37,280 bases of DNA from Actinomycetota bacterium (lineage in GTDB: Bacteria > Actinomycetota > Actinomycetes > Actinomycetales > Microbacteriaceae), in contig JBDKLA010000002.1 of assembly GCA_039795835.1 (NCBI GenBank), positions 1 through 37,280 of the forward strand. The letters are read 5' to 3'. Positions 32,485 to 36,085 of the stretch are shown piece after piece; position 1 is the stretch's first letter, and each line of letters starts with the position of its first letter. The position numbers and the translations under genes were made by a program. Below the pieces are notes generated by a model, which worked only from the letters and a program-made list of their open reading frames with translations, was not told the DNA's origin and did no database searches.

Positions 32485-32554
32485 AAAGAAGATGCTAGCC
32501 GAGCCGAAGCACTTGCTCCCTGACTGACACACTGCTAAATAGACTGATAAGACC

Positions 32555-33142
32555 ATGAACGATCGAGTGCAGCCAGGGCAACTACGGCGCGAGCTGCGTT
32601 TCTCACGTTCAACAATCTCTCAGAACCTAGAGTCCATCGGCGTTTCCATGGACGAAGTGAAACCTCTACTGGAAGCATTCATGACCACGAACGGCCTCCT
32701 GGGCCTCTACGGCAGCGAACTGCTACTGGCCGAGAAGGCCTTAGGTATCTCAGCGGGGACTCCAGCCGTTGACCTGGTTGGTGAGTTGGTCTCGGTCAAA
32801 CAAGTACCAGCGGGCACGGGTGTGTCTTACGGCTACCTCTCCAGAACCAGTACCGAGACCAATTTGGGGTTAGTCGGAATTGGCTTCTCAGACGGAATTC
32901 CCAGATCGGCAACCAACCAAATCAAACTTTCTATCTCCGGTCAAAGCTATCGGGGCCTTGGACGCATCGCCATGGACCAGTGCATCGTCGATTTGGGTCA
33001 GGATTCGCCAAAACTCGGTGCCGAAGTTTCCTTCTTTAGTCGCGAGTTCAGTCTTAGCGACTGGGCTCGGGCGTCTGGATTTAGCCAGCTCGAAATCCTC
33101 GGTCGAATCACCGATCGAGTTGTTAGAACGTGGTCCGAATGA
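32555..33142 (+). CDS. Alanine racemase C-terminal-domain protein (has catalytic Tyr, lacks PLP barrel)
   Basis: VKQVPAGTGVSYGY, IGFSDGIPR, GRIAMDQCIVD, EILGRITDRVVRTW; no VKADAYGHG motif. Confidence 0.88.
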   Translation: MNDRVQPGQLRRELRFSRSTISQNLESIGVSMDEVKPLLEAFMTTNGLLGLYGSELLLAEKALGISAGTPAVDLVGELVSVKQVPAGTGVSYGYLSRTSTETNLGLVGIGFSDGIPRSATNQIKLSISGQSYRGLGRIAMDQCIVDLGQDSPKLGAEVSFFSREFSLSDWARASGFSQLEILGRITDRVVRTWSE

Positions 33143-34149
33143 CGGTAACCAAACACGTTGACCTTTTGGCCTACAAAGAAAATCTGAAACTCATCGGCGA
33201 GCTGGTGAGCCCAGCAAAGTTGATGGCGGTAATCAAGGCCGATGCCTACGGTCATGGGTTGATCGAAATAGCTCAGGCGGCCGAAGAATTTGGAGTTGAT
33301 TCACTCGGGGTTCTCGACATCGAAACAGGTCTAAAGATTCGAAAAGCCGGGGTCAAGACCCCTGCCTTTGCATGGTTGCACTCTCCAGAAAGCAACTTCA
33401 CCGCGGCAGTAAAGGCTGGCATCGAACTCTCGGTGAGTTCATTGGCAGAACTAAAAAGAATTTCAATCGTCCAGGGCCGCGCAAAAGTTCACCTAAAGAT
33501 TGACACCGGATTGAGCCGTAACGGTTGCCGACCTGAAGACTGGTACGAATTGGTTTCTGAGGCTAGAGCCATTGAAGATTCAGGGTCGATTGACCTGGTG
33601 GCAATCTGGTCGCATCTTTCTGGAACGAGCCAGCAGGACGACGAAACAGCGATTGGCAAATTCGAAGACGCACACAGGATTGCCGTTGAACTTGGTTTCA
33701 AAGGTTACCGTCACATCGCTTCCAGCCCAGCAGCATTCAATCTTCCTAAGAGTAGATACGAACTGGTTCGCATCGGTGTTAGTGCTTTTGGAACATCGCC
33801 TGTAGAGGGAAAGCCAGCCAGTGACTTGGGTCTCAAGATTCCAATGCGATTGACCGCTGAAGTTCTGGCTCCCGAAGTGATTTCCATCGGCTTCCTGCAC
33901 GGCTACTTCAGTCAACTTGCCGGAAAAGCCCAAGTGTCGATTGCTGGCAAGCTTTACCCAGTAAACAAGATTGGACCTCTAGCAAGTTCGATTGGTCCAG
34001 GCGATTACAACCCCGGTGACGAAGTTTTGATTCTTGGCACAGAACCCGACCTTGCCCCCACTGCCGAGGATCTTTGTGAACTGGTTTCAACAGTGACCGA
34101 TGAACTCTTCACCGGACTCAAGCCAAACCTAACTTCGTACTCTGGCTAG
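33139..34149 (+). CDS. Alanine racemase family PLP enzyme with degenerate C-terminal domain
   Basis: AVIKADAYGHG (PLP Lys33), HLKIDTGLSRNG, WSHL, HIASS, VRIG; lacks VSYG and GRxxMD motifs; ATGA overlap with the upstream gene. Confidence 0.9.
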   Translation: MTVTKHVDLLAYKENLKLIGELVSPAKLMAVIKADAYGHGLIEIAQAAEEFGVDSLGVLDIETGLKIRKAGVKTPAFAWLHSPESNFTAAVKAGIELSVSSLAELKRISIVQGRAKVHLKIDTGLSRNGCRPEDWYELVSEARAIEDSGSIDLVAIWSHLSGTSQQDDETAIGKFEDAHRIAVELGFKGYRHIASSPAAFNLPKSRYELVRIGVSAFGTSPVEGKPASDLGLKIPMRLTAEVLAPEVISIGFLHGYFSQLAGKAQVSIAGKLYPVNKIGPLASSIGPGDYNPGDEVLILGTEPDLAPTAEDLCELVSTVTDELFTGLKPNLTSYSG

Positions 34150-34836
34150 AATCGCAGCTCTGGCTTTCTTCGCAAGCCGATCGAACGTATCGGCGGTCTT
34201 TGGCTTCACATACTTCGGGAAAACCCAAGAAAGCAGTCGATCGGCCAGTTGCGGGTTCATGGGCAGAAGTGGTCCCTGTACATTGCTTGCCATGACTTTG
34301 CCGTCCTGGTAGCCGTCTACATAACCAACCAAACCTGCGTTGTCAGAAGAACGAACTATGCCGAGTTCCATACCAGGCGCTCCCCTTACGATCAAACGGT
34401 TTGAGTTCACGAAGCCCGCAAAACTTTCAGATAACCAGACTTCACCAACCAGATAAGAAGCCGCAAACTTGTGCTCGGTATTGGTAAGACCCAAACCTTC
34501 CAGGACCGAGCCATCTGGAAGTTCAAGACTTTTGGAAACGAGATCGAACCCAGCTCCAACCGCTAGAACTTTCAATCCCTGTGCGATCCAGGCATGAATT
34601 TGTAGATCTTTCTTGGCGAGGTCGGCGTGAGCTACCTTGGTAGCCGAAAATGTTCCAGAGCCGATAAAGATCAAATGTGGTCGATTCGCAGGTAGAGACT
34701 CCCCGACCTCTAAGGTGGAAACCTTGACCGAGTAACCGGCCAATTCTGCTCGCAACTTCAGCGCGGCAACGTTGCCCCTTTCGCCGTTGAGACGAAGGGT
34801 TTCTGGATAGAGGTGCAGGATTCTGAACTCAGCCAT
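34129..34836 (-). CDS. gatD: GatD/CobQ-like class I glutamine amidotransferase-fold protein, catalytically degenerate
   Basis: LYPETLRLNGERGN, FIGSG, EGLG, GPLLPMNPQLADRLL; nucleophile site reads AVGAG and His site reads NVQGP. Confidence 0.85.
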   Translation of the reverse strand: MAEFRILHLYPETLRLNGERGNVAALKLRAELAGYSVKVSTLEVGESLPANRPHLIFIGSGTFSATKVAHADLAKKDLQIHAWIAQGLKVLAVGAGFDLVSKSLELPDGSVLEGLGLTNTEHKFAASYLVGEVWLSESFAGFVNSNRLIVRGAPGMELGIVRSSDNAGLVGYVDGYQDGKVMASNVQGPLLPMNPQLADRLLSWVFPKYVKPKTADTFDRLAKKARAAILARVRS

Positions 34837-36085
34837 TGCCACCCTCTAAATCCAACAGACCGAGTTTCTTACGAAGCCACATCATTTGCTCGTAATTCAC
34901 GATGGCGGTTTTCTCAGTTCCTGGAAGTTTCAAGAAATACTCGAGCGCCTCGGACTCGTTCTCGATTAGTTTCATGACTGGAATCCTCTCGAAGGCAAGT
35001 CGAGTGGCCCACTGATATGTCTTGGTGCCAGAAACTACATCAACGCGATCAAGATTCGATAGGTCAATGTCGTAGATCCATGAAGGGTCGGGTGTTCCTT
35101 CGTCGACCGATATCCAAACTCGTTTGGGAACGGTCTCGAGAGCATCTAGATTCGCTTGAAGGCTAGGAAGATTCTTCATCATGATGATTTCGATCTTTTG
35201 ACCCTGATGCTCAATCACTTCTCCGCGTCCGTAAACGGCAGGAAGATCAGAAATAGCTGAACCCGCAACCTTGGCCTGAAACTTAGTTCCGAGAATTTTC
35301 TTGGCCATTCCAATTGCCAAAGCGGCATCAACCGCATAGTGAAGGCCGGGAGCCGGCAAGGTAACCGAGAGCTTGTCACTCTCAATTTTGAGCGTCGCGA
35401 CCCTACCCTTGGCATCTACCAAAGTCACCGAGGAATCAAGGTTGGATTCATCCTTAGTGAAACTTGGCGCTGCCAAAATTCCGTGTTGAGCAGACTTTCG
35501 AGCCTTGTCCGATAGGTAAATTCCCTGAACGTTCAATCTCGAAGAATTCTCACGTCCAAGCCGCTCGGTGTTTGGATCTTCACCGTTAACCACTAGGAAA
35601 TCGGTCGTCAACGCCGCTAGTTCATTCAGGTAAACGTAGACATCTTCAGGTGAATGGAAACGGTTCAACTGATCGAGCTGGATGTTGGTCAGAAGCAATC
35701 CATTAGGTGCAACCTTCGCTGCAATCAACTTGCCATAGGCCTCATCGACTTCGAGAACGGCCACGTCATGTTCTAGCCGTCCCAGGTAGTTCACATCGGC
35801 AAGTAGGGCCGAAGCTAAACCCTGTGGCAGGTTACCGCCAGCTGGGTTAGAAAGAACCTTGAGACCGTGATCTCGCAGAATTTTGACCAGCATGGCTGTG
35901 GTCGTTGATTTCCCATTGGAACCACTCACGAAATAGATGCCGGAAGACATTCGACCGAGCGTTTTCTGCAGAAAACGAGGTTGAATCGCAAGCGCTAGTC
36001 GGCCAGGAACTGCTGAACCACCACCGCGAAGCCTGAGGACAAAGCGGGCAGCCTTGCCAACCAGGACCGCGAGTGGTGTAAGCAT
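34829..36085 (-). CDS. murT: MurT-like Mur ligase (DUF1727 domain)
   Basis: GGSAVPG, P-loop GSNGKSTT, SNPAGGN, LEVDE, DQLNRF, GRGE, MKN, DPSWIYD, NYEQMMWLRK. Confidence 0.88.
   Translation of the reverse strand: MLTPLAVLVGKAARFVLRLRGGGSAVPGRLALAIQPRFLQKTLGRMSSGIYFVSGSNGKSTTTAMLVKILRDHGLKVLSNPAGGNLPQGLASALLADVNYLGRLEHDVAVLEVDEAYGKLIAAKVAPNGLLLTNIQLDQLNRFHSPEDVYVYLNELAALTTDFLVVNGEDPNTERLGRENSSRLNVQGIYLSDKARKSAQHGILAAPSFTKDESNLDSSVTLVDAKGRVATLKIESDKLSVTLPAPGLHYAVDAALAIGMAKKILGTKFQAKVAGSAISDLPAVYGRGEVIEHQGQKIEIIMMKNLPSLQANLDALETVPKRVWISVDEGTPDPSWIYDIDLSNLDRVDVVSGTKTYQWATRLAFERIPVMKLIENESEALEYFLKLPGTEKTAIVNYEQMMWLRKKLGLLDLEGGNG

What the first reader, a model, noticed from the sequence alone, without database searches (positions are those of the whole stretch)
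32555..34149. Two Alr paralogs with complementary half active sites: a probable obligate heterodimeric racemase
Seen in sequence: the 195-aa protein keeps an Alr-like first strand and helix (RELRFSRSTISQNL) and a full C-terminal beta domain with GVSYG (Tyr92, codon 32828-32830) and GRIAMDQ, but has no TIM barrel or PLP lysine. The 336-aa protein has the barrel with Lys33 (codon 33235-33237), but its beta domain goes from MRLTAEVL straight to ISIGFLHGY, deleting the VSYG hairpin, and GRxxMD has decayed to KIGPLAS. The genes are coupled by an ATGA overlap. Established: each Alr site uses Lys39 of one subunit and Tyr265' plus the Met312'-Asp313' loop of the other (Geobacillus numbering). Inference: after duplication each copy kept only the half it contributes, giving a heterodimer with a single active site.
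Basis: partly seen in the sequence, partly recalled or inferred. Interest (0 to 1): 0.85.

Follow-up and report, generated by a model that had tools for sequence, protein, structure and literature searches.

The report
Split racemase sharing one active site
Two overlapping genes each keep only one half of the catalytic parts of an alanine-racemase-type enzyme, a split kept in many related bacteria, so the two proteins likely work as one enzyme with a single active site, probably making an unusual D-amino acid for the cell wall.

Summary
Observation confirmed. The 195-aa protein has only the Alr beta domain with catalytic Tyr92; the 336-aa protein has the barrel with PLP Lys33 and lacks the Tyr hairpin. 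In 53 two-gene loci the large protein keeps the Lys in 53 and the Tyr in 0; the small protein is the reverse. A large gene lacked its small partner only where a contig ended. One genome fuses the two halves. Five near-complete genomes have no Alr beta-domain match outside a split or fused pair. A predicted complex scored 0.96 against 0.01 for controls, a pass that may reflect likeness to solved Alr dimers. The genome also has an intact housekeeping alr, and the alanine-gate Tyr354 is Asp or Glu in 53 of 53 large subunits. The pair sits beside MurT and a GatD lacking its catalytic Cys, and its subtype travels with a MurT subtype. Best reading: heterodimeric single-site racemase (about 0.85), probably making a D-diamino acid for B-type peptidoglycan (about 0.5). 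No activity was measured. I found no paper describing it; this scan noted the same system before on other DNA. New variant of a known kind.

The parts
32555..33142 (+). Small, Tyr-donating subunit (195 aa): remnant first strand and helix plus full Alr beta domain; no barrel, no PLP lysine
32828..32830 (+). Tyr92, equivalent of catalytic Tyr265' of Geobacillus Alr
   Evidence: TAC; 107 of 107 homologues; 53 of 53 paired small subunits
32903..32905 (+). Arg117, equivalent of entryway Arg290'
32963..32977 (+). Arg137-Ile-Ala-Met140-Asp141, equivalent of the Arg309'...Met312'-Asp313' loop; contacts Lys33 of the large subunit in the model
33139..33142 (+). ATGA stop/start overlap; a 4-base overlap in 17 of 24 relatives checked, starts chosen by script
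33139..34149 (+). Large, PLP-binding subunit (336 aa): full barrel (Lys33, Lys120, Arg127, His159, Arg211), beta domain without the Tyr hairpin
33235..33237 (+). Lys33, equivalent of PLP Schiff-base Lys39
   Evidence: AAG; 53 of 53 paired large subunits
33868..33879 (+). Short APEV link at the place where the Tyr265 hairpin is deleted
34099..34101 (+). Asp321 at the position of the alanine-specificity gate Tyr354; Asp or Glu in 53 of 53 large subunits
34129..34833 (-). GatD-like gene with Gly in place of the catalytic Cys; probable part of the same cell-wall module
34829..36085 (-). MurT-like ligase of the subtype that travels with this racemase subtype

Best explanation
The two genes encode complementary halves of an Alr-fold enzyme that likely assemble into a heterodimer with one working PLP site and probably racemise a basic (diamino) amino acid for the cell-wall cross-bridge rather than alanine. 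Shown in sequence: the large chain has every barrel-side residue (Lys39, Lys129, Arg136, His166, Arg219 equivalents) and no Tyr hairpin; the small chain has every partner-side residue (Tyr265', Arg290', Arg309', Met312') and no PLP lysine. Established for Alr: each site uses Lys39 of one chain and Tyr265 of the other. Predicted: head-to-tail pairing that puts the small chain's Met140-Asp141 and Tyr loop on the large chain's Lys33 site, the second site being lost. Inferred history: duplication, loss of opposite halves, then shrinkage of the unused barrel (small chains run from about 350 aa with a decayed barrel down to about 190 aa). Inferred role: the D-amino acid made (D-2,4-diaminobutyrate, D-ornithine or D-lysine) would be joined to D-Glu by the neighbouring MurT-type ligase, whose GatD partner lacks the catalytic Cys that releases ammonia. 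My odds: heterodimer with one site about 0.85; diamino-acid substrate for the wall about 0.5.
For: Complementarity in 53 two-gene loci: large K39/K129/R136/H166/R219/G221 53 of 53, Y265 0 of 53; small Y265 and M312 53 of 53, R290 and R309 52 of 53, K39 0 of 53; intact controls keep K39 and Y265 in 47 of 47. Small always directly upstream of large. Fusion of small and large in one 765-aa frame in L219. Separate origin from the housekeeping alr: fused in L321-L324, split in L083; one clade of all large halves is rejected, p-AU 1.8e-8, 44-row subset. In G012, G017, G063, G109 and G146 (98-100% complete) all 9 Ala_racemase_C matches lie in the split or fused pair, so the design probably supports D-Ala supply there. 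Model: ipSAE 0.96, best of 3 controls 0.01, runs agree in at least 97% of contacts, partner pLDDT at least 91; the mark was reached by 116 of 157 solved and 2 of 215 mismatched pairs. Substrate: intact alr elsewhere in G000; Tyr354 is Asp32/Glu21; Tyr354 gates alanine specificity and is replaced in Lys and broad racemases (PMC3485190, PMC4542195, passages); walls in this family carry a D-DAB bridge on D-Glu (PMC9603630, PMC4156110, passages); GatD lacks the Cys in 72 of 75 rows; all 32 genomes with the window's racemase subtype have MurT of one clade (SH-aLRT 96) while that label needs 17 changes on a ParE tree, 8 of 8 independent pairs agree, p 0.008; in L092 a diaminobutyrate transaminase follows the pair directly.
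Against: No binding, PLP or activity data. The complex pass may come from likeness to solved Alr homodimers, and the tool gave no Tyr92-PLP distance. For the substrate step: 13 of the 50 relatives with the pair have no MurT match at E<=1e-30; co-travel with MurT is partly explained by physical linkage; the dead GatD is family-wide, also in genomes without the pair; a transaminase over the TIGR00709 cut-off is in only 25 of 151 genomes, most carriers lack it and G000 (72% complete) has none. Only 5 of 61 genomes of the window's genus have the large gene. The window's housekeeping Alr groups with a named Rhodoluna locus, and that genus' type strain has D-Ala-D-Dab in its wall (PMC4156110); most of the genus lacks the pair, so if they share that wall, D-Dab can be made another way. 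G012 has the pair at this locus as its only Alr-family candidate, so some members may act on alanine.
Confidence: 0.75

Rival explanations
1. Same one-site heterodimer, but its substrate is alanine (a second Alr) or another neutral amino acid such as serine or homoserine, with no special tie to the cross-bridge.
For: The housekeeping-derived fusions keep the Tyr354 motif where it was read (TINYEV in L321, L322) and are the only Alr-family beta-domain matches in four genomes; G012 has only the pair. Asn at the Tyr354 position gives serine activity in VanT (PMC4542195). Patchy presence in the window's genus; 13 carriers lack MurT.
Against: G000 already has an intact alr. The position is acidic in 53 of 53 large subunits, never Asn or Tyr. 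An intact paralogue of the same lineage far from murT still comes with the same MurT clade in 10 of 10 genomes examined.
Confidence: 0.3
2. The large protein works alone as a homodimer, using another residue as second base or doing another PLP reaction; the small protein is a modulator or a remnant.
For: Ornithine racemase of the same fold replaces the Tyr by a conserved Cys (PMC13397332, passages). The large protein keeps a partial beta domain, with Asp313 in 36 of 53.
Against: No Cys or other new candidate base among the invariant columns of 30 diverse large subunits. The small protein keeps precisely the catalytic and entryway residues, which a remnant would lose. No large gene without its small gene except at contig ends. 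Fusions exist. A large-large homodimer was not modelled.
Confidence: 0.07
3. The small protein's real partner is the housekeeping Alr (a hybrid or an inhibitor), and its position beside the large gene is incidental.
For: The small protein is about as similar to housekeeping Alr beta domains as to anything else, and close cousins of a true partner can also score in complex prediction.
Against: Fixed order and overlap with the large gene, fusion to it, and presence in G012, which has no intact Alr beta-domain gene.
Confidence: 0.04
4. A decaying duplicate, frameshift or assembly artefact.
For: The genome is a 72% complete assembly.
Against: About 100 homologues of the small protein at 56-93% identity, mostly 194-195 aa; the same two-gene layout in 48 of 150 family genomes; both genes carry their own beta domain, so this is not one gene broken in two.
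Confidence: 0.01

Closest known systems
Canonical alanine racemase Alr/DadX (TIGR00492; best solved matches 1VFH, 5FAC, 1XFC; Geobacillus 1SFT)
   Same: Fold type III barrel plus beta domain; Lys/Tyr two-base pair across a subunit interface; all PLP-side residues kept.
   Different: Two unequal chains, neither with both bases; one site predicted instead of two; Tyr354 is Asp/Glu; each chain is below the TIGR00492 cut-off (147.8 and 97.5 against 168). A 2015 paper states that all characterised members are homodimeric (PMC4542195, passage).
Alr-fold racemases for larger substrates: Lyr and Bar (PMC3485190), Oenococcus lysine racemase (PMC6955911), VanT serine racemase (PMC4542195)
   Same: Tyr354 gate replaced by another residue.
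   Different: Those described as dimers are homodimers with Thr, Ala or Asn there (Trp in the Oenococcus enzyme); they are weak sequence matches; here the residue is acidic and the enzyme is split.
Ornithine racemase OrnR (PMC13397332)
   Same: Fold type III racemase whose chain lacks the catalytic Tyr; acts on a diamino acid.
   Different: OrnR uses a conserved Cys in a single gene product; the large subunits have no invariant Cys and have a Tyr-bearing partner gene.
Eukaryotic serine palmitoyltransferase SPT1/SPT2 (PMC6148460) and trypanosomatid deoxyhypusine synthase DHSc/DHSp (PMC7581365, PMC3663545)
   Same: Homo-oligomer with shared interface sites turned into a heteromer of paralogues; only one has the catalytic Lys; half the sites are dead.
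   Different: Unrelated folds, eukaryotic; the Lys-less partner keeps its whole fold, whereas here it supplies a catalytic base and has deleted most of the barrel, with intermediates and fusions still present.
MurT/GatD lipid II isoglutaminyl synthase (NF045635, NF045636)
   Same: Neighbouring genes match these models and act, by homology, on the D-Glu alpha-carboxyl.
   Different: Far below the curated cut-offs; GatD lacks the catalytic Cys.

Membership tests
Alanine racemase Alr | N-terminal barrel with PLP lysine (Lys39) and Arg136, His166, Arg219 | tested here: met
   Met by the large chain only; absent from the small chain
Alanine racemase Alr | C-terminal beta domain with Tyr265 and the Met312-Asp313 loop | tested here: met
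   Met by the small chain only; hairpin deleted in the large chain
Alanine racemase Alr | Both catalytic residues on one polypeptide, giving a homodimer with two sites | tested here: not met
   0 of 53 large chains have the Tyr, 0 of 53 small chains the Lys
Alanine racemase Alr | Tyr354 specificity gate | tested here: not met
   Asp321 in the window; Asp 32, Glu 21 of 53
Alanine racemase Alr | Score above the TIGR00492 equivalog cut-off (168 bits) | tested here: not met
   147.8 and 97.5 bits
Alanine racemase Alr | L-Ala/D-Ala interconversion | not testable with these tools
   Needs an assay
Ornithine racemase OrnR | Conserved catalytic Cys replacing the Tyr | tested here: not met
   No invariant or nearly invariant Cys among 30 large subunits; feature from PMC13397332
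Complementary-paralogue heteromeric enzymes (SPT1/SPT2, DHSc/DHSp type) | Paralogues with reciprocal loss of the residues of a shared interface site | tested here: met
Complementary-paralogue heteromeric enzymes (SPT1/SPT2, DHSc/DHSp type) | Physical complex of the two paralogues | tested here: inconclusive
   Model passes (0.96 against 0.01) but may reflect likeness to solved Alr dimers; natural fusions
Complementary-paralogue heteromeric enzymes (SPT1/SPT2, DHSc/DHSp type) | Activity needs both subunits | not testable with these tools
   Needs an assay; indirect support from five genomes with no other Alr beta-domain match
MurT/GatD isoglutaminyl synthase (neighbouring genes) | GatD glutaminase nucleophile Cys | tested here: not met
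   Gly in the window; Cys in 3 of 75 rows, all three at other loci; the motif is recalled and seen intact in L310-L312

The most novel reading that the evidence does not exclude
A bacterial family has repeatedly turned the homodimeric Alr fold into a one-site heterodimer, and this lineage is the undescribed PLP racemase that supplies the D-diamino acid of B-type peptidoglycan, working with a MurT ligase and a catalytically dead GatD as an exchangeable cassette that sets the cross-bridge type. Intact, split, shrunken and re-fused forms all survive, giving a complete natural series for how heteromeric enzymes arise.
Probability: 0.45. Interest if true: 0.8.

Novelty: new variant of a known kind. 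Interest (0 to 1): 0.66.

Why it matters
Alr-fold racemases are described as homodimers. A natural pair in which a 195-residue chain delivers the second catalytic base to a separate PLP chain would be a new architecture for this textbook family, and both genes are named simply 'alanine racemase' by most sources that name them, which misleads annotation. Because intact, split, shrunken and fused forms coexist and arose at least twice, the system allows a direct test of how complementary loss locks paralogues together. It also names a testable candidate for the source of the D-diamino acid in B-type peptidoglycan, for which my searches found no described enzyme.

Tried and rejected
Literature: ten searches found no split or heterodimeric alanine racemase and no racemase assigned to B-type bridges; the library lacks most subscription papers and no supplements were read. 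Diaminobutyrate transaminase as a marker of substrate: not general among carriers. A search for an alternative racemase in four genomes without the pair found one Asp/Glu-racemase-family and one DAP-epimerase gene each and a normal TINYE/SINYE Alr, so their D-amino acid route is unexplained. Beta-domain tree: 132 columns, poorly resolved, and my pattern-based labels marked several intact genes as halves; its change counts are not used. Barrel tree: four rows mislabelled (G004, G099, G026, G016); left out. Direction of change is not settled: large halves of the Asp/Glu lineage are not one clade without the intact paralogues (p-AU 0.0015), so either several splits or re-formation of intact genes. 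RNA runs: two found, one with a small share of words; one 277-base contig of run X1 spans the junction, but contigs cannot show one transcript and DNA may be present. Outside the family, matches at E<=1e-45 in 234 genomes of the order all lay in open frames of 383 aa or more, so no short Tyr subunit was found with that query. PMC6113628 gave nothing on the wall types of carriers.

Full report
Observation. The window holds two same-strand frames, 32555-33142 (195 aa) and 33139-34149 (336 aa), overlapping by ATGA, between parE (divergent) and gatD-murT-rpoD (convergent). Pfam finds only Ala_racemase_C in the small protein, and Ala_racemase_N plus a beta domain that starts at profile position 36 in the large one. 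Tyr92, Lys82, Ser91, Gly93, Asp113, Arg117 are invariant in 107 small-protein rows; Lys33 is in all 120 large rows that cover it. The genome has a separate intact alr in glmS-acpS-alr-tsaE.

Established background. In Alr the site lies between the barrel of one chain and the beta domain of the other, with Lys39 from one and Tyr265 from the other; Tyr354 and Tyr265' form the gate that restricts it to alanine (PMC3485190, passages). A 2015 paper calls all characterised members homodimeric and shows that the Tyr354 position sets serine versus alanine preference (PMC4542195, passages). Geobacillus numbering was transferred through motifs of the genome's intact Alr, not by structural superposition.

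Spread. I searched 150 genomes of the window's family and fetched the candidates visible in the listed matches, so counts are lower bounds. A two-gene pair was verified in 48, a fusion in 1 (G093, L219), a large gene at a contig end in 1 (G142), an intact paralogue of the same lineage in 17, and a housekeeping-derived split or fusion in 5. Most pairs lie between parE and rpoD in either orientation; one lies at the glmS locus (L232). In 16 of the 17 genomes with the intact paralogue that were checked, no pair lies beside gatD. Named carriers include Microbacterium phyllosphaerae (L149), Glaciihabitans sp. (L161) and, for the intact form, Cnuibacter sp. (L104); named large-subunit homologues come from Leifsonia, Diaminobutyricibacter, Diaminobutyricimonas, Schumannella, Amnibacterium and Pseudolysinimonas. 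In the window's genus only 4 of 60 other genomes have the large gene, all 4 with the small gene upstream. No short Tyr subunit was found in 234 genomes of other families of the order with the query used.

Complementarity. For 53 two-gene loci (48 handles plus 5 named loci; the window not counted), large chains keep K39, K129, R136, H166, R219 and G221 in 53 of 53 and Y265 in 0; small chains keep Y265 and M312 in 53, R290 and R309 in 52, and K39 in 0 (Arg 29, gap 11, Asp, Gly, Thr, Ser 3 each, Ala 1). Intact controls keep K39 and Y265 in 47 of 47. Many small chains still show the xADAYGHG motif with the Lys replaced, and eight are 308-375 residues long with a decayed barrel; most are 207-252; the window's has lost even the motif. 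The 24 loci picked through the small gene all had a large gene; those picked through the large gene all had a small one except at contig ends.

Fusions and repeat origins. L219 encodes small then large in one 765-aa frame. In G017, G063, G109 and G146 the housekeeping alr position holds a single chain of Lys half then Tyr half, in two cases further fused to TsaE; G054 has the same split with the Tyr half fused to TsaE. These large halves fall in the housekeeping clade, and one clade of all large halves is rejected (p-AU 1.8e-8; 44 of 117 rows used, four mislabelled rows left out). In those four genomes and in G012, all 98-100% complete, every Ala_racemase_C match is in the split or fused pair. 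Since D-Ala is normally needed for the wall (general knowledge), this suggests that the design works as a racemase; a D-amino acid transaminase route was not excluded. The Asp/Glu lineage's halves and intact paralogues form one clade (support 98), but the halves alone do not (p-AU 0.0015), so the order of events within it is open.

Models. The small protein folds well (pLDDT 93.5). Large plus small plus PLP scored ipSAE 0.96 in three runs, best of three controls 0.01, contacts agreeing in at least 97%, partner pLDDT at least 91; that mark was reached by 116 of 157 solved and 2 of 215 mismatched pairs, counts that hold only roughly for this job. Lys33 touches Met140, Asp141 and Ser112, and residues 88-94 are in the interface, as in an Alr dimer. 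Because Alr dimers are solved, the pass may be from memory; it shows fit, not binding.

Substrate. Tyr354 is Asp (32) or Glu (21) in all 53 large chains, which would open the gate and suit a basic side chain (inference; known Lys and broad racemases replace this Tyr). Walls of this family are cross-linked from D-Glu through a diamino acid, D-DAB in Clavibacter (PMC9603630, passages) and D-Ala-D-Dab in Rhodoluna lacicola (PMC4156110, passages). The adjacent GatD lacks the catalytic Cys in 72 of 75 rows, with or without the pair, which fits a MurT that adds an amine other than ammonia. On a MurT tree of 85 genomes the 32 with the window's racemase subtype form one clade (SH-aLRT 96); on a ParE tree the same label needs 17 changes; 8 of 8 independent pairs agree. 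Two complete genomes of the window's genus lack the pair and have MurT at 33-34% identity to the window's, against about 50% in distant carriers and 68-80% in genus members with the pair. Linkage explains part of this, but 10 genomes with the intact paralogue far from murT, and G006, follow the same rule. In L092 a diaminobutyrate transaminase lies right after the pair.

Against the substrate reading. Thirteen of 50 carriers have no MurT match. The transaminase is not general. Most of the window's genus lacks the pair, although the genus is probably Rhodoluna or close to it and its type strain has D-Dab. G012 has only this pair. The exact substrate is therefore open, and may differ between subtypes.

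Known systems. Reciprocal loss in paralogues that share an interface site is known from serine palmitoyltransferase (PMC6148460, passages) and trypanosomatid deoxyhypusine synthase (PMC7581365, passages; PMC3663545, listing only). OrnR lacks the Tyr but uses a Cys (PMC13397332, passages), which the large chains do not conserve. The one dedicated Dab racemase I found described is the PLP-independent PddB (PMC8225329, passages). Ten searches found no split or heterodimeric Alr; supplements and most subscription papers were not seen. Earlier notes of this scan report the same pair in two other genomes and the MurT/dead-GatD idea in a third; they are not independent evidence.

Verdict. It works like an Alr-type two-base racemase but is not a member of the canonical Alr family, failing the single-chain and Tyr354 tests. 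New variant of a known kind; interest 0.66.

Noticed in passing
window 34129-36085 (-): GatD next to MurT has Gly for the catalytic Cys and Gln for the His of the HGP motif; the Cys is missing in all 72 rows of this type and present in 3 GatD at other loci. MurT may ligate an amino acid to D-Glu.
   Followed up: partly
L321:3375-5552, L322:3290-5299, L323:3686-6055, L324:3188-5452, L083:5117-7212: The housekeeping alr itself is a Lys-half/Tyr-half fusion or split, in three cases with the Tyr half fused to TsaE; a separate origin of the same design.
   Followed up: partly
L219:4945-7242 (-): Natural single-chain fusion of a full-length Lys-less copy and a Tyr-less copy.
   Followed up: yes
L096-L103, L238-L243, L314-L316: Intact second alr in tandem after the housekeeping alr, with Asp or Glu at Tyr354; the simplest enzyme for finding the substrate.
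   Followed up: partly
L092:2371-7186: Between parE and rpoD: an unknown 235-aa frame, the pair, a diaminobutyrate transaminase and a 343-aa frame that looks like an ATP-grasp protein (by eye, not searched); no murT. Possibly an alternative bridge-building cassette.
   Followed up: partly
window 32487-32556: The listed parE frame starts inside the small gene's start; homologues align from about residue 24, so the true start is probably about 70 bases further on. TAGACT at 32540-32545 lies 9 bases before the small gene's ATG, as in a leaderless transcript (by eye).
   Followed up: no
G000:C76:5424-6074: A second Asp/Glu-racemase-family gene in the window's genome, not found in four relatives searched.
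   Followed up: no
L325-L333: Further intact Alr-like paralogues with His at or near the Tyr354 position (TIPHE, TIAHE), outside both lineages.
   Followed up: no
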